The position numbers and the translations under genes are program-made. 64,000 nt of DNA from Escherichia coli (GTDB lineage Bacteria > Pseudomonadota > Gammaproteobacteria > Enterobacterales > Enterobacteriaceae), in the NCBI RefSeq assembly GCF_044324785.1, contig NZ_CP172127.1; one strand, given 5' to 3'. This document shows positions 1,602 to 29,677 of the stretch, in pieces. The number at the start of each line of letters is the position of its first letter. Positions within the stretch are counted from its first letter, which is position 1. The notes under the pieces are model-generated. The model searched no databases. It was not told the origin of the DNA and saw only the letters and a program-made list of their open reading frames with translations.

Positions 1602-1948
1602 AAATTCTCCTGTAAAACGCGGAATATACCGTACCTCTTAGCGGGGAAAAACAGGGTTATGCGGCAACGTCGAAATTAAATGTGATCTGCCACGCCTTTT
1701 ATCACAAAAGTGTCTCCGGAAGTACGATGCAAATTTGCCTGGCAAAATAAGGATAATCAACATATTACGAATCGCTGCACACCTGTGCTGATGACTACTA
1801 CGCAGAGAAACAAATGTGCAAGAGAAAGCGCTATTTCTCCCCATGCAAAGAGTGAAAAATCGCTTTGAAAGGCCATCATGATGGGGTTATATCAGATCAA
1901 GCGGTGAGAAAGCGTATTTGCACAAATGTGCAGAACCAGGAGGCGGCA

Positions 1949-2896
1949 ATGGAAAACAGTGACGATATCCGTTTGATTGTGAAGATTGCCCAACTCTATT
2001 ACGAACAGGATATGACGCAGGCGCAAATCGCGCGCGAACTGGGTATTTACCGCACCACCATCAGCCGCTTGCTTAAACGAGGCCGCGATCAGGGAATTGT
2101 CACCATCGCCATCAACTATGACTACAACGAAAATCTCTGGCTGGAGCAGCAACTGAAGCAAAAGTTTGGCCTGAAAGACGTTGTGGTGGTGTCGGGAAAT
2201 GATGAGGATGAAGAGACTCAACTGGCGATGATGGGGTTACACGGCGCGCAACTGCTGGATCGCTTGCTGGAGCCTGGCGATATTGTCGGTTTTTCCTGGG
2301 GTCGCGCGGTGAGCGCACTGGTTGAAAACTTGCCGCAGGCGGGGCAATCGCGGCAGTTAATCTGCGTACCAATTATTGGCGGACCGTCCGGTAAACTCGA
2401 AAGCCGCTATCATGTAAACACATTAACCTACAGCGCGGCAGCGAAGTTGAAAGGGGAATCGCATCTCGCGGATTTTCCGGCTCTACTGGATAACCCATTA
2501 ATTCGTAATGGGATCATGCAGTCTCAGCACTTTAAAACCATCTCTGCCTACTGGGATAATCTGGATGTCGCCCTGGTGGGAATTGGCTCACCGGCCATTC
2601 GCGACGGCGCTAACTGGCATGCGTTTTATGGTGGTGAAGAGAGTGACGACCTGAATGCCCGCCAGGTTGCTGGCGATATTTGCTCGCGCTTTTTTGATAT
2701 TCACGGCGCAATGGTTGAAACGAATATGAGCGAAAAAACACTCTCTATCGAAATGAATAAATTAAAGCAGGCGCGATATTCCATTGGCATTGCCATGAGC
2801 GAAGAAAAATACAGTGGAATTGTTGGTGCACTGCGTGGAAAATATATTAATTGTCTGGTAACGAATAGCAGCACAGCTGAACTATTACTGAAATAA
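1949..2896 (+). CDS. sorC: SorC-family transcriptional regulator of the sorbose operon
   Basis: 315 aa from ATG 1949 with AGGAGG RBS at 1937-1942; N-terminal HTH (MTQAQIARELGIYRTTISRLLKRG) plus sugar-phosphate binding domain; the ORF track's longer form uses an upstream TTG that I consider less likely. Confidence 0.8.
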   Translation: MENSDDIRLIVKIAQLYYEQDMTQAQIARELGIYRTTISRLLKRGRDQGIVTIAINYDYNENLWLEQQLKQKFGLKDVVVVSGNDEDEETQLAMMGLHGAQLLDRLLEPGDIVGFSWGRAVSALVENLPQAGQSRQLICVPIIGGPSGKLESRYHVNTLTYSAAAKLKGESHLADFPALLDNPLIRNGIMQSQHFKTISAYWDNLDVALVGIGSPAIRDGANWHAFYGGEESDDLNARQVAGDICSRFFDIHGAMVETNMSEKTLSIEMNKLKQARYSIGIAMSEEKYSGIVGALRGKYINCLVTNSSTAELLLK

Positions 2897-2965: not shown

Positions 2966-3772
2966 ATGCAAACGTGGTTAAATTTGCAGGATAAAATCAT
3001 TATCGTCACCGGCGGCGCATCCGGTATTGGTCTGGCGATTGTAGAGGAATTATTAGCACAAGGCGCAAATGTACAGATGGTCGATATTCACGGTGGCGAT
3101 GGTCAATATGAAGGTCATAAAGGCTATCAGTTTTGGCCGACCGATATTTCCAGCGCCAAAGAGGTAAATCATACGGTAGCGGAAATTATCCAGCGTTTTG
3201 ATCGCATCGACGGTCTGGTCAATAACGCCGGGGTCAATTTCCCGCGTCTGCTGGTCGATGAGAAAGCGCCTGCCGGGCAGTATGAACTCAACGAAGCTGC
3301 ATTCGAAAAAATGGTCAATATCAACCAGAAAGGCGTTTTTCTGATGTCACAGGCGGTGGCGCGACAGATGGTCAAACAACATGATGGCGTGATTGTGAAT
3401 GTTTCCTCAGAAAGTGGACTGGAAGGCTCAGAAGGCCAAAGCTGTTACGCCGCGACCAAAGCCGCGCTTAATAGCTTCACGCGCTCCTGGTCGAAAGAGC
3501 TGGGTAAGCACGGTATCCGTGTGGTCGGTATCGCGCCGGGGATTCTGGAAAAAACAGGACTGCGCACGCCGGAATATGAAGAAGCGCTGGCGTGGACGCG
3601 CAATATCACCGTCGAGCAGCTGCGTGAAGGCTATACCAAAAATTCCATTCCTATTGGGCGCGCCGGAAGATTAGCAGAAGTGGCTGATTTTGTTTGTTAT
3701 CTGCTGTCTGAACGCGCCAGCTATATCACCGGAGTAACCACTAACATTGCAGGCGGCAAAACGCGCGGTTAA
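2966..3772 (+). CDS. sorD: Short-chain dehydrogenase, D-glucitol(sorbitol)-6-phosphate dehydrogenase type
   Basis: 268 aa; SDR Rossmann motif TGGASGIGLA and catalytic YAATKAA; second gene of the operon. Confidence 0.8.
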   Translation: MQTWLNLQDKIIIVTGGASGIGLAIVEELLAQGANVQMVDIHGGDGQYEGHKGYQFWPTDISSAKEVNHTVAEIIQRFDRIDGLVNNAGVNFPRLLVDEKAPAGQYELNEAAFEKMVNINQKGVFLMSQAVARQMVKQHDGVIVNVSSESGLEGSEGQSCYAATKAALNSFTRSWSKELGKHGIRVVGIAPGILEKTGLRTPEYEEALAWTRNITVEQLREGYTKNSIPIGRAGRLAEVADFVCYLLSERASYITGVTTNIAGGKTRG

Positions 3773-6381: not shown

Positions 6382-6432
6382 TTCTTCGCCCCGGCACGAC
6401 TGCCGGGGCCATCGCTCAACATGAGGTGGTTT

Positions 6433-7662
6433 ATGAAAACAACAGCTCTGCGTCTTTATGGTAAACGTGATTTACGCCTGGAAACCTTTGATCTTCCTGA
6501 AATGCAGGAGGATGAAATCCTCGCGACGGTGGTCACTGACAGCCTGTGCCTCTCTTCCTGGAAAGAGGCCAACCTGGGTGAAAACCATAAAAAAGTACCC
6601 GACGATGTGGCGACCAACCCAATCATCATCGGCCACGAGTTTTGCGGCGATATTCTGGCCGTGGGTAAAAAGTGGCAGCACAAATTCCAGCCGGGTCAGC
6701 GTTATGTGATTCAGGCCAACCTGCAACTCCCCGACCGCCCGGACTGCCCCGGCTACTCCTTCCCGTGGGTGGGCGGCGAAGCCACGCATGTGGTTATCCC
6801 AAATGAGGTTATGGAACAAGATTGCCTGCTGGCATACGACGGCGAAACCTATTTTGAAGGCTCGCTGGTTGAACCGCTTTCCTGCGTGATTGGCGCGTTC
6901 AACGCCAACTATCATCTTCAGGAAGGTAGTTATAACCACACGATGGGGATTCGCCCGCAAGGGCGCACGCTGATCCTCGGCGGCACCGGACCAATGGGAC
7001 TGTTGGCGATTGATTATGCGCTGCATGGACCCGTTAACCCGTCGCTGCTCGTCATTACCGATACCGACAACGACAAATTGAGTTATGCGCGCAAGCACTA
7101 TCCATCAGAACCGCAAACACTGATTCATTATCTCAATGCCGCCGATGCAGCATTTGATACGTTAATGGCACTGAGTGGCGGTCACGGCTTCGATGATATT
7201 TTCGTCTTTGTGCCTAATGAAGGACTGGTGACTCTCGCCTCTTCCTTGCTGGCGACAGATGGTTGTCTGAATTTCTTCGCCGGACCGCAGGATAAGCACT
7301 TCAGCGCGCCAATTAATTTCTACGATGTGCATTATGCATTTACCCACTACGTGGGCACGTCAGGCGGCAATACCGACGACATGCGCGCAGCGGTCAAATT
7401 GATTGAAGAGAAAAAAGTGCAGGCCGCAAAAGTGGTAACACATATTCTTGGGCTGAATGCCGCGGGCGAAACCACGCTTGAATTGCCTGCCGTCGGCGGC
7501 GGCAAAAAGCTGGTGTATACAGGGAAATACCTGCCGCTGACGTCACTCACGCAGATTCAGGATCAAGCACTGGCGGCGATTCTGGCGCGTCATCAGGGGA
7601 TCTGGTCCGGTGAGGCGGAGCAATACCTGCTCGCCCATGCAGAAGCAATTTCCCATGATTAA
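6433..7662 (+). CDS. sorE: Zn-dependent dehydrogenase, L-sorbose-1-phosphate reductase type
   Basis: 409 aa from ATG 6433 (MKTTALRLYGKRD...); MDR/alcohol-dehydrogenase family with GHEFCG zinc motif; last gene of the operon. Confidence 0.75.
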   Translation: MKTTALRLYGKRDLRLETFDLPEMQEDEILATVVTDSLCLSSWKEANLGENHKKVPDDVATNPIIIGHEFCGDILAVGKKWQHKFQPGQRYVIQANLQLPDRPDCPGYSFPWVGGEATHVVIPNEVMEQDCLLAYDGETYFEGSLVEPLSCVIGAFNANYHLQEGSYNHTMGIRPQGRTLILGGTGPMGLLAIDYALHGPVNPSLLVITDTDNDKLSYARKHYPSEPQTLIHYLNAADAAFDTLMALSGGHGFDDIFVFVPNEGLVTLASSLLATDGCLNFFAGPQDKHFSAPINFYDVHYAFTHYVGTSGGNTDDMRAAVKLIEEKKVQAAKVVTHILGLNAAGETTLELPAVGGGKKLVYTGKYLPLTSLTQIQDQALAAILARHQGIWSGEAEQYLLAHAEAISHD

Positions 7663-24663: not shown

Positions 24664-24783
24664 ATGCCTGGCAGTTCCCTACTCTCGCATGGGGAGACCC
24701 CACACTACCATCGGCGCTACGGCGTTTCACTTCTGAGTTCGGCATGGGGTCAGGTGGGACCACCGCGCTACGGCCGCCAGGCA
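24664..24783 (-). rRNA. rrfE: 5S ribosomal RNA
   Basis: Reverse complement matches E. coli 5S over 120 nt (TGCCTGGCGGCCGTAGCGCGGTGGTCCCACCTGACCCCATGCCGAACTCAG...). Confidence 0.95.
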
Positions 24784-24875
24784 AATTCTGTTTCATCAGA
24801 CCGCTTCTGCGTTCTGATTTAATCTGTATCAGGCTGAAAATCTTCTCTCAATCCGCCAAAACAGCTTCGGCGTTG

Positions 24876-27781
<2,906 letters not shown>

Positions 27782-27974
27782 TCACAACCCGAAGATGTTT
27801 CTTTCGATTCATCATCGTGTTGCAAAAATTTGAGAGACTCACGAACAACTTTCGTTGTTCAGTGTTTCAATTTTCAGCTTGATCCAGATTTTTAAAGAGC
27901 AAATATCTCAAACATCACCCGAAGATGAGTTTTGAGATATCAAGGCAGGTGACTTTCACTCACAAACCAGCAAG

Positions 27975-28050
27975 TGGCGTCCCCTAGGGGATTCGAACCC
28001 CTGTTACCGCCGTGAAAGGGCGGTGTCCTGGGCCTCTAGACGAAGGGGAC
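27975..28050 (-). tRNA. gltV: tRNA-Glu(UUC) in the 16S-23S spacer
   Basis: Reverse complement GTCCCCTTCGTCTAGAGGCCCAGGACACCGCCCTTTCACGGCGGTAACAGGGGTTCGAATCCCCTAGGGGACGCCA. Confidence 0.95.
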
Positions 28051-28135
28051 GTATCAGTCTGCTTCGCAAGACGCCTTGCTTTTCACTTTCTATCAGACAA
28101 TCTGTGTGAGCACTACAAAGAACGCTTCTTTAAGG

Positions 28136-29677
<1,542 letters not shown>

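What the first reader, a model, noticed from the sequence alone, without database searches (positions are those of the whole stretch)
1811..1948. Candidate operator: repeated AAATGTGCA motif and perfect palindrome in the sorC leader
TGCACAAATGTGCA (1919-1932) is a perfect 6-bp-arm inverted repeat lying 17 nt upstream of the sorC ATG, just before the AGGAGG RBS. The half-motif AAATGTGCA recurs at 1812-1820 and a related AAATGTGATC at 1676-1685. The position suits an autoregulatory SorC operator or an mRNA hairpin near the RBS. It also bears on start-codon choice, since the ORF track's upstream TTG start would translate through the palindrome.
Basis: seen in the sequence. Interest (0 to 1): 0.25.

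Follow-up and report, generated by a model that had tools for sequence, protein, structure and literature searches.

The report
Conserved SorC operator of sorbose operon
The palindrome in front of the E. coli sorbose-operon regulator gene sorC is real, is the best-conserved element of that control region, and is very probably the previously undescribed DNA site where SorC binds to control its own operon; this is an ordinary kind of bacterial switch.

Summary
The window is E. coli (lysC-yjbD-rluF | sorCDFBAME | pepE-yjbB-metH). TGCACAAATGTGCA lies at 1919-1932, and ACAAATGTGCA repeats at 1810-1820 and 1922-1932, as reported.

In 41 enterobacterial sorC loci from about 12 genera, TTGCACAwATGTGCA is invariant 30-34 nt before the start codon and is the most conserved 14-mer of the region. 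These are nGCACAnnnGTGCn at 1776-1789, the half-site at 1807-1821 (a full palindrome in Kluyvera), and a weak CACAAAAGTG at 1703-1712. Their spacing is fixed at 31 and 112 bp.

GCAC-N4-GTGC occurs 80 times in the 41 upstream regions and never in 267 kb of flanks. Firmicutes regulators with the same recognition helix carry the same palindrome before sorbitol-PTS operons; a different helix goes with a different palindrome. The 5-N6-5 geometry equals the B. subtilis DeoR half-operator.

The palindrome is therefore very probably a SorC operator at about +19 to +33 of a weak conserved promoter. The RNA-hairpin reading is unsupported, and the ATG at 1949 is the start. It is a new member of a known kind, of modest interest.

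The parts
1918..1933 (.). S4, the proximal operator: TTGCA-CAAATG-TGCAG (core TGCACAAATGTGCA 1919-1932, centre 1925.5).
   Evidence: Invariant as TTGCACAwATGTGCA in 41 of 41 enterobacterial loci. It is the most conserved 14-mer of the region. The same palindrome occurs before Firmicutes regulators with the same recognition helix.
1806..1821 (.). S3, the middle site: aGAAACAAATGTGCAa (centre 1813.5). Only the right half, CAAATGTGCAA, is conserved in most genera. It is a full palindrome, TGCACAAACGTGCAA, in Kluyvera. It lies 112 bp from S4 (101 bp in Kluyvera).
   Evidence: CAAATGTGCAA is at least 90% conserved.
1776..1789 (.). S2, the distal site: TGCACACCTGTGCT (centre 1782.5). The arms GCACA/GTGC are conserved and the centre is free. 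It lies 31 bp from S3 and 143 bp from S4. It is absent in Kluyvera.
1701..1714 (.). S1, a possible weak fourth site: ATCACAAAAGTGTC, with a conserved CACAAAAGTG core (centre 1707.5), next to the CRP-like site.
   Evidence: The block is conserved at 75% or more. It lacks the outer G/C of the dyad, so the assignment is tentative.
1678..1699 (.). CRP-like site AAATGTGATCTGCCACGCCTTT. The left half matches the consensus 11 of 11, and the whole site 16 of 22.
   Evidence: TGTGATC is invariant, and the C.C and CTTT positions are conserved in non-Kluyvera loci. Matches to the consensus are 12-18 of 22 at -271 to -276 wherever the site was the scan's top hit (28 of 35 non-Kluyvera loci). The consensus was recalled from general knowledge.
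1744..1767 (+). IHF-like site: an A/T tract followed by the core AATCAACATATTA, which matches WATCAANNNNTTR (1755-1767).
   Evidence: An exact core match sits at the same position in 28 of 35 non-Kluyvera loci, against 2 matches in 265 kb of flanks.
1728..1739 (.). Conserved block TGCAAATTTGCC (TGCAAnTTTGcc), function unknown.
1845..1893 (+). Predicted sor promoter. It has A-rich UP-like blocks (AAA 1846-1848, GAAAAAT 1853-1859), the -35 hexamer TTGAAA at 1865-1870, a 17-bp spacer, and the -10 hexamer TATATC at 1888-1893. The predicted start is near 1900. The conserved block GGGGTTATATCAGATCA spans 1883-1899.
   Evidence: It is the top sigma-70 PWM hit of 1650-1948, and the same position is top or near top in other genera. 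It is the second most conserved block. The strict consensus scan found no promoter, so it is weak. The transcription start has not been mapped.
1938..1951 (+). Shine-Dalgarno AGGAGG (1938-1943) and the sorC start codon ATG (1949-1951).
1949..2896 (+). sorC, 315 aa, with a sigma70_r4-like HTH plus the Sugar-bind domain. It is the predicted binder of S1-S4.
   Evidence: Pfam PF04198 at 1.4e-80 plus PF04545. E-value 1.9e-183 to K. pneumoniae SorC 2W48, with residues 1-46 identical.

Best explanation
The palindrome (S4, 1918-1933) is the strongest of three or four binding sites for SorC, the regulator encoded immediately downstream. Each site is a dyad of the form TTGCA-N6-TGCAA, read by a dimer of SorC helix-turn-helix domains. 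This is the same reading geometry as the B. subtilis DeoR left half-operator, TTGAA-N6-TTCAA.

S4 lies between the predicted weak promoter (TTGAAA-17-TATATC, start near 1900) and the ribosome-binding site. SorC bound there without inducer would block promoter escape or elongation. It would thereby repress sorCDFBAME, including its own gene.

The upstream sites S3 (about -86) and S2 (about -117) are held at fixed distances from S4. They are the likely second anchors of the SorC tetramer, which would enclose the promoter in a 112- or 143-bp loop. With sorbose present, they are the likely positions from which SorC activates the weak promoter. A CRP-like site and an IHF-like bend site further upstream would assist.

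What is shown: the sites, their conservation and spacing, their link to this type of recognition helix, and their position upstream of the start codon and next to the RBS. What is inferred: that SorC is the binder, the transcription start, looping, the activation geometry, and the roles of CRP and IHF. The confidence given (0.8) is for the core claim that the palindrome is a SorC operator; the looping and activation details are less certain (see full report).
For: 1. The palindrome is invariant in 41 of 41 sorC loci whose proteins are 70-100% identical, while neighbouring bases vary. It is the top-ranked 14-mer of the region.
2. GCAC-N4-GTGC occurs 80 times in 41 x 300 bp of upstream sequence and 0 times in 267 kb of flanks.
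3. S2-S4 is 143 bp and S3-S4 is 112 bp wherever the scan detected the sites: S2-S4 in all 35 non-Kluyvera loci, S3-S4 in the 23 where S3 scored. No indels fall between S2 and S4 in the alignment of these loci. The single Kluyvera indel is 11 bp, about one helical turn.
4. The SorC DNA-binding domain (residues 1-46) is identical between E. coli and K. pneumoniae. It aligns to B. subtilis DeoR, and the DeoR base-contacting residues R34 and R39 correspond to SorC R35 and R40.
5. The DeoR left half-operator ATTGAACAAAATTTCAAT has the same 5-N6-5 layout, and its half-site TTGAACA differs from TTGCACA at one base.
6. There is independent cross-phylum support. Seven Firmicutes loci encode regulators with the helix (I/Q)YRTTISR(L/M)LKK; six are next to sorbitol-type (gut) genes and one, L053, is next to a different PTS. 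Together they carry 12 hits with up to 1 mismatch in 54 kb, against 0.04 expected, and all are intergenic. Several lie 24-31 nt before the regulator's start codon, just ahead of the RBS, as in E. coli.
7. Of the two regulators fetched with the helix INRTTVSKYLKK/R, L050 carries CGTCACAAATGTGACG instead, and neither has a TGCACA..TGTGCA hit.
8. SorC is reported to activate with sorbose and repress without it (Wohrl et al. 1990, as cited in PMC12817954). The SorC tetramer presents two separated pairs of DNA-binding domains (de Sanctis 2009, as described in PMC2943609).
Against: No binding experiment or transcription-start mapping is available here. The -10 hexamer TATATC lacks the usual final T, and the strict consensus scan found no promoter. 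My PWM score of 10.26 is below the 95th percentile of shuffles, 10.95.

No partner site lies about 2 helical turns from S4, unlike the DeoR (39-bp) and CggR (45-bp) operators. The nearest pair, S2-S3, is 31 bp apart. At 10.5 bp per turn, 112 bp and 143 bp are 10.7 and 13.6 turns, so S4 is not in phase with S2 and S3.

The CRP-like site would lie near -211, too far for classical CRP activation. The enterobacterial loci are phylogenetically related, so the counts are not independent events. The early Klebsiella papers (Wohrl 1990; Wehmeier and Lengeler 1994) could not be read, so they may already mention these repeats.
Confidence: 0.8

Rival explanations
1. S4 works alone as a simple repressor roadblock, and S2/S3 (with S1) are separate activator sites. 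There is no loop between them, and the SorC tetramer is not needed to bridge sites.
For: In several Firmicutes loci a single palindrome in the leader or over the -35 hexamer is the only site seen near the regulator gene. The S3-S4 and S2-S4 distances are non-integral numbers of turns at 10.5 bp per turn. The CggR operator also sits downstream of the start, at +32 to +77.
Against: The S2-S3-S4 distances are invariant across genera, and the Kluyvera indel is 11 bp, which suggests the sites interact. DeoR half-operators bind only when both are present. The fixed distance could equally reflect an activator-to-promoter constraint alone.
Confidence: 0.35
2. The palindrome acts in the mRNA. A hairpin next to the Shine-Dalgarno sequence would modulate translation or stability of sorC.
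For: The transcript could form a 5-8 bp stem with a 4-nt loop (-8.1 kcal/mol for 1912-1940, z -2.0). In Klebsiella-type leaders the stem reaches the first bases of AGGAG.
Against: The 62- and 63-nt leaders fold no better than shuffles (z -0.9, +0.8, -0.03, -1.0). Both arms are invariant, so there is no covariation. No Rfam family matches. The same motif occurs at S2 and S3 upstream of the predicted promoter, and over -35/spacer regions in Clostridium loci, where it cannot act as this hairpin. The motif tracks the regulator's recognition helix.
Confidence: 0.04
3. The palindrome is the site of another transcription factor (not SorC), or is conserved for a non-regulatory reason such as part of the mobile sor island.
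For: No direct SorC-DNA data exist. The whole control region travels with the sor island, whose left boundary is near 1636.
Against: The motif is found only next to SorC-type regulators in unrelated genomes from two phyla, whose upstream regions are too divergent to be aligned with E. coli's. It changes when the regulator's helix changes. The only other GCAC-N4-GTGC in the 64-kb window is inside 23S rRNA.
Confidence: 0.05

Closest known systems
B. subtilis DeoR operator of dra-nupC-pdp (SorC/DeoR subclass; structures 7BHY and 8R7Y; PMC11229326)
   Same: The regulator has the same architecture, a sigma70_r4-like HTH plus the Sugar-bind domain (E 4.3e-40 to 8R7Y). The dyad layout is the same, TTGAA-N6-TTCAA against TTGCA-N6-TGCAA. 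The contacted half-site TTGAACA differs from TTGCACA at one base. A full palindrome is combined with a repeat of its 3' half, as S4 or S2 is with S3. The contact arginines are conserved.
   Different: The DeoR operator is one compact 39-bp unit at -60 to -21, overlapping the promoter, with half-operators about 2 turns apart. The sor sites are spread over about 230 bp at spacings of 31, 75 and 112 bp, and the strongest site lies downstream of the predicted start. DeoR is only a repressor, and its gene lies outside the regulated operon.
B. subtilis CggR operator of the gapA operon (SorC/CggR subclass)
   Same: The regulator is the first gene of its own operon. The operator lies in the transcribed leader (+32 to +77) and acts after initiation. 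The tetramer binds cooperatively and is modulated by a sugar phosphate.
   Different: CggR has a different DNA-binding domain (a winged helix), a different motif (CGGGAC-N6-TGTC direct repeats), a single compact 45-bp operator, and no activation.
Loop-forming sugar regulators of E. coli (AraC O2-I1, GalR OE-OI, E. coli DeoR)
   Same: Multiple operators flank the promoter at fixed distances. In ara, CRP sites sit in the same control region, and AraC both represses and activates.
   Different: The protein families are unrelated. Looping at sor is only inferred from spacing conservation.
E. coli LsrR (SorC family) at the lsrR-lsrA intergenic region
   Same: It belongs to the same family and the same HTH subclass, and is a tetramer (E 6.3e-29).
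   Different: Its recognition helix differs (LTRLKVSRLLEKG in the alignment). Its binding-site sequence could not be retrieved here, so it was not compared.

Membership tests
Operator of a SorC/DeoR-subclass regulator | The adjacent regulator has an N-terminal sigma70_r4-like HTH plus a C-terminal Sugar-bind (PF04198) domain. | tested here: met
   Pfam PF04198 at 1.4e-80 and PF04545 at 7.6e-07. E-value 1.9e-183 to SorC 2W48 and 4.3e-40 to DeoR 8R7Y.
Operator of a SorC/DeoR-subclass regulator | A dyad-symmetric site with 5-bp arms separated by about 6 bp, read by a dimer of DNA-binding domains. | tested here: met
   TTGCA-CAAATG-TGCAG at 1918-1933 compared with the DeoR left half-operator ATTGAACAAAATTTCAAT.
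Operator of a SorC/DeoR-subclass regulator | Base-contacting residues of the recognition helix are conserved with the solved DeoR-DNA complex. | tested here: met
   DeoR R34 and R39 (native numbering) align with SorC R35 and R40. Other contacts were not examined.
Operator of a SorC/DeoR-subclass regulator | Two half-operators about 2 helical turns apart form one compact 39-45 bp operator for a tetramer. | tested here: not met
   No conserved partner lies 21-23 bp from S4, S3 or S2. The nearest pair, S2-S3, is 31 bp apart, and S3-S4 is 112 bp. The architecture therefore differs from DeoR and CggR.
Operator of a SorC/DeoR-subclass regulator | The motif co-occurs with, and co-varies with, the regulator across genomes. 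| tested here: met
   41 of 41 enterobacterial loci carry it. Seven of seven Firmicutes loci with the same helix carry it, with 12 hits against 0.04 expected. Of the two loci with an altered helix, L050 has an altered dyad, and neither has a TGCACA..TGTGCA hit.
Operator of a SorC/DeoR-subclass regulator | Sequence-specific binding by the purified regulator, modulated by the effector. | not testable with these tools
   This needs EMSA or footprinting. No published SorC-DNA data were found in the library.
CRP (cAMP receptor protein) site, for 1678-1699 | A 22-bp site with TGTGA-N6-TCACA. | tested here: inconclusive
   The left half matches 11 of 11, the right half 5 of 11, and the total is 16 of 22. 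The key positions TGTGA and C.C are conserved. The consensus was taken from general knowledge, not from a curated matrix.
CRP (cAMP receptor protein) site, for 1678-1699 | Centred at -41.5 to about -92.5 relative to the regulated start. | tested here: not met
   The centre, 1688.5, is about -211 from the predicted start near 1900. CRP could act only through DNA bending or looping, or from an unrecognised upstream promoter.
IHF site, for 1744-1767 | The core WATCAANNNNTTR with an A/T-rich tract upstream. | tested here: met
   AATCAACATATTA is preceded by AAAATAAGGAT. The core is exact in 28 of 35 loci, against 2 matches in 265 kb of background. Binding was not tested.
cis-regulatory RNA hairpin or known RNA family | A structure more stable than shuffled sequence, covariation, or an Rfam match. 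| tested here: not met
   Leader z-scores run from -1.0 to +0.8. There is no variation in the arms. No relevant Rfam match was found.

The most novel reading that the evidence does not exclude
The sor control region is a two-state nucleoprotein switch for a SorC-family tetramer. Without sorbose the tetramer bridges the leader site S4 and the upstream site S3 or S2, enclosing the promoter in a 112- or 143-bp repression loop. With inducer it lets go of S4 and, from S3/S2, activates the weak promoter. The IHF-bent DNA would fold the distant CRP/S1 module back onto the promoter; S1 and S3 lie 52-54 bp either side of the IHF core. This would be an AraC-like 'light switch' in an unrelated family. 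It would explain how the founding SorC protein, unlike DeoR and CggR, both represses and activates.
Probability: 0.25. Interest if true: 0.55.

Novelty: new member of a known kind. Interest (0 to 1): 0.35.

Why it matters
SorC gives its name to a large family of sugar-responsive regulators, yet no DNA target for it turned up in the reachable literature. A 2010 paper states that DeoR was the only family member besides CggR with an identified site. A 2024 structural paper still works only with DeoR and CggR operators. None of the 8 million papers searched contains the palindrome.

A precise, testable operator (TTGCA-N6-TGCAA), a site map and a helix-to-motif correspondence would let the existing SorC crystal structure be interpreted on DNA. 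They would guide promoter-fusion and EMSA experiments. They would also allow regulon prediction for the many sorbitol and sorbose PTS operons in Enterobacterales and Firmicutes.

The sor operon is currently of interest as a fitness and virulence marker of high-risk E. coli lineages. For annotation, the result fixes the sorC start at 1949.

Tried and rejected
1. Upstream promoter 'P1' around GATAAT 1752-1757. It was rejected because the -35 is poor or the spacing wrong, and because the conserved bases there fit an IHF core exactly.
2. A sigma-54 promoter reading of TTGCA. There is no GG 10 bp upstream, and that region is not conserved.
3. A second half-operator 21-23 bp from S4, S3 or S2, as in DeoR and CggR. 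Nothing conserved was found.
4. The strict promoter and terminator scan found nothing in 1550-2000.
5. An Rfam scan of 1550-2050 gave only a chance snoRNA hit at E 0.96.
6. The small ORFs in the region (TTG 1865 extension; 1641-1844 on the minus strand) have no Pfam match. The extension is broken by stops in other genera.
7. Literature. The 1992 J Bacteriol E. coli sor paper and the LsrR JBC paper are not held. Two apparent 'SorC' hits were only 'Sorcerer II' references. The recent sor papers contain no promoter or operator data.
8. I first read the Kluyvera site at -131 as the orthologue of S2, moved by 42 bp. The alignment shows it is S3, moved by an 11-bp deletion.
9. The third GCAC-N4-GTGC in the window (26242) lies inside 23S rRNA and is chance.

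Full report
**Context.** The window is an E. coli chromosome segment. It runs from the 3' end of lysC through yjbD and rluF (minus strand, start at 1601) to a seven-gene sorbose operon. The operon comprises sorC 1949-2896, an SDR gene 2966-3772, PTS IIA, IIB, IIC and IID genes, and sorE 6421-7662. It is followed by pepE, yjbB and metH. The 347-bp rluF-sorC spacer is present in 2872 of 5426 complete E. coli genomes. A sor-negative genome matches only its first 35 nt, so the sor island begins near 1636 and carries its own control region.

**Check of the observation.**
- TGCACAAATGTGCA is at 1919-1932, with 6-bp perfect arms and a 2-bp AA centre.
- Sixteen nt separate it from the ATG at 1949, and AGGAGG is at 1938-1943.
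- AAATGTGCA recurs at 1812-1820. The shared repeat is 11 nt, ACAAATGTGCA, at 1810-1820 and 1922-1932.
- The 'related AAATGTGATC' is at 1678-1687, two bases off the stated coordinates.
- Window statistics alone are weak. The 9-mer occurs 2 times against 1.0 expected. The dyad with up to 1 mismatch occurs 2 times against 0.24 expected.

**Comparative evidence in Enterobacterales.** A scan of one genome per species with a SorC alignment returned 44 loci. Of these, 41 are enterobacterial, with proteins 70-100% identical. They come from Escherichia, Pseudocitrobacter, Citrobacter, Klebsiella, Raoultella, Enterobacter, Mangrovibacter, Pantoea, Erwinia, Cedecea, Entomohabitans and Kluyvera.
- In all 41, TTGCACAwATGTGCA sits 30-34 nt before the start codon, while the bases on both sides vary.
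- In the alignment, the 14-bp window starting at 1918 or 1919 is the most conserved of 1675-1948. Its majority fraction is 0.996 against a regional mean of 0.754.
- S2 (1776-1789) has the form nGCACAnnnGTGCn. Its arms are conserved and its centre is free, the signature of a dimer-read dyad.
- S3 (1806-1821) keeps only the right half, CAAATGTGCAA, in most genera. It is a full palindrome, TGCACAAACGTGCAA, in Kluyvera.
- S1 (CACAAAAGTG, 1703-1712) is a weaker possible site.
- GCAC-N4-GTGC occurs 80 times in the 41 x 300-bp upstream regions and not once in 267 kb of flanking sequence.
- S2-S4 is 143 bp in every non-Kluyvera locus. S3-S4 is 112 bp wherever S3 was detected (23 of the 35 loci). No indels fall between S2 and S4 in the alignment of these loci.
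- Kluyvera lacks everything upstream of S3 and has one 11-bp deletion between S3 and the -35 hexamer.
- The loci are related, so these are not independent counts. Even so, invariance and fixed spacing amid substitutions show constraint.

**Other conserved elements**.
- 1678-1699, AAATGTGATCTGCCACGCCTTT, matches the CRP consensus in its left half (11 of 11; 16 of 22 overall). Conservation falls on TGTGA, C.C and TTT.
- 1755-1767, AATCAACATATTA, matches the IHF core WATCAANNNNTTR, with an A/T tract upstream. The match is exact in 28 of 35 non-Kluyvera loci, against 2 in 265 kb of background.
- 1728-1739, TGCAAnTTTGCC, is conserved and unexplained.
- A rough sigma-70 matrix, with frequencies recalled from memory, ranks TTGAAA(1865)-17-TATATC(1888) first in 1650-1948. 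The same position is first or near first in other genera.
- The surrounding block GGGGTTATATCAGATCA (1883-1899) is the second most conserved stretch.
- The promoter is weak. The strict scan finds nothing, and the score of 10.26 is below the 95th percentile of shuffles.
- A weak promoter suits an activator-dependent operon. With a start near 1900, S4 lies at +19 to +33, S3 near -86, S2 near -117, the IHF core at -145 to -133, S1 near -192, and the CRP-like site near -211.

**Link to the protein.** SorC has a sigma70_r4-like HTH plus the Sugar-bind domain. Residues 1-46 are identical to K. pneumoniae SorC (2W48), which matches an invariant operator. The protein aligns over its full length with B. 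subtilis DeoR (8R7Y, E 4.3e-40).

The DeoR left half-operator used for the crystal structure, ATTGAACAAAATTTCAAT, is TTGAA-N6-TTCAA. S4 is TTGCA-N6-TGCAG, and TGCAA in several strains. The contacted DeoR half-site TTGAACA differs from TTGCACA at one base. The DeoR arginines reported to touch bases, R34 and R39, align with SorC R35 and R40.

**Independent cross-phylum test.** A Clostridium arbusti homologue (38% identical) has the recognition helix LGIYRTTISRLLKK, against LGIYRTTISRLLKR in E. coli. It carries TTCACAAATGTGCA over the -35 and spacer of a near-consensus promoter.

Six more Firmicutes regulators with this helix were then fetched. Including C. arbusti, six of the seven sit next to sorbitol-type (gut) genes such as GutM, EII-GUT and SDR, and one sits before another PTS. 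All carry the palindrome:
- Metabacillus has TGCACATATGTGCA 31 nt before the ATG, directly ahead of the RBS.
- Tepidimicrobium has TGCACAAACGTGCA at -29, plus a perfect copy in the leader of the divergent gene.
- Thermoanaerobacterium has three sites.
- C. akagii has sites before the regulator, SDR and gutM genes.
- C. botulinum has a perfect copy.
- Paenibacillus has copies at -24 and before the PTS gene.

In total there are 12 hits with up to 1 mismatch in 54 kb, against 0.04 expected, and all are intergenic. Two regulators with a different helix (INRTTVSKYLKK or INRTTVSKYLKR) have no such hit. One of them carries CGTCACAAATGTGACG instead. The motif therefore follows the helix, not the genome or the exact target genes.

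**Rivals.**
- RNA hairpin. The stem is short, and leaders fold no better than shuffles (z -0.9, +0.8, -0.03, -1.0; the isolated 29-mer gives z -2.0). There is no covariation and no Rfam match. The same motif also occurs outside the predicted transcript and over promoters.
- Another protein or a non-regulatory repeat. This is contradicted by the exclusive association with SorC-type regulators in two phyla. The only other core match in the window lies inside 23S rRNA.
- Roadblock without looping remains a serious alternative for the mechanism.

**Start codon.** Homologues are 315-317 aa. In 15 of 41 loci an in-frame stop lies 12 codons upstream of the conserved Glu2 codon, within 36 nt of the coding start. 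The 28-aa extension from TTG 1865 has no family match. The ATG at 1949 is therefore the start in E. coli; Klebsiella-type genes start two codons earlier.

**Mechanism and confidence.**
- I put about 0.85 on S4 being a SorC binding site.
- I put about 0.7 on S4 mediating repression and autoregulation from a leader position. This resembles the CggR operator at +32 to +77, and matches the reported dual role of SorC.
- I put about 0.6 on S2/S3 being SorC sites used for activation, for cooperative anchoring, or for both.
- I put about 0.3 on a promoter-enclosing loop.
- I put about 0.5 each on real CRP and IHF involvement.
- Against membership in the DeoR/CggR type of compact operator: no partner lies about 2 turns from any site. 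The sor arrangement is dispersed, at 31, 75 and 112 bp.

**Novelty.** Library searches found no description of a SorC operator. A 2010 paper says DeoR was the only other family member with an identified site. The early Klebsiella papers and RegPrecise could not be consulted. The element is an operator of a known family with a familiar dyad, so I rate it a new member of a known kind. It is useful and testable, but not surprising.

Noticed in passing
window 1728-1739: A conserved block TGCAAATTTGCC (TGCAAnTTTGcc across genera) lies between the weak S1 site and the IHF-like core. It reads like two outward-facing TGCAA/TTGCA half-sites but has no assigned function.
   Followed up: partly
window 1883-1899: The 17-bp block GGGGTTATATCAGATCA around the predicted -10 hexamer is almost invariant across genera. 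That is far more than a -10 hexamer needs. It contains a Dam GATC at 1895-1898, near the predicted transcription start.
   Followed up: no
L050 2941-2956; L051 2930-2965: Firmicutes gut-operon regulators with the recognition helix INRTTVSKYLKK/R lack TGCACA..TGTGCA. L050 has CGTCACAAATGTGACG instead. The central CACAAATGTG is shared and the outer bases change with the helix, which suggests a specificity code for this subfamily.
   Followed up: partly
L046-L049, L050-L052: The closest Firmicutes relatives of SorC sit in glucitol/sorbitol PTS operons (GutM, EII-GUT, an SDR dehydrogenase, transaldolase), not next to mannose-type sorbose PTS genes. The same operator therefore serves different transporter families.
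   Followed up: partly
window about 1602-1636: Only the first 35 nt after rluF match a sor-negative E. coli genome. The left edge of the sor island is therefore near 1636, and the whole CRP/IHF/SorC control region is part of the island. The island is present in 2872 of 5426 complete genomes.
   Followed up: partly
window 24666-29677, minus strand: This is a complete rRNA operon: 5S, 23S, the StyR-44 element in the spacer, a tRNA, and 16S. The only other GCAC-N4-GTGC in the window (26242) lies inside the 23S gene and is a chance match.
   Followed up: yes
window 1822-1830 and 1906-1914: GAGAAAGCG is repeated exactly, once just after S3 and once just before S4. It is conserved only within the Escherichia/Pseudocitrobacter clade, so it is probably not functional.
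   Followed up: partly
L013-L045 versus window 1933-1951: In Klebsiella, Citrobacter and Raoultella-type loci the Shine-Dalgarno AGGAG overlaps the last base of the palindrome (TGTGCAGGAG), and the start is two codons earlier. In the Escherichia clade a separate AGGAGG lies 5 nt further downstream.
   Followed up: no
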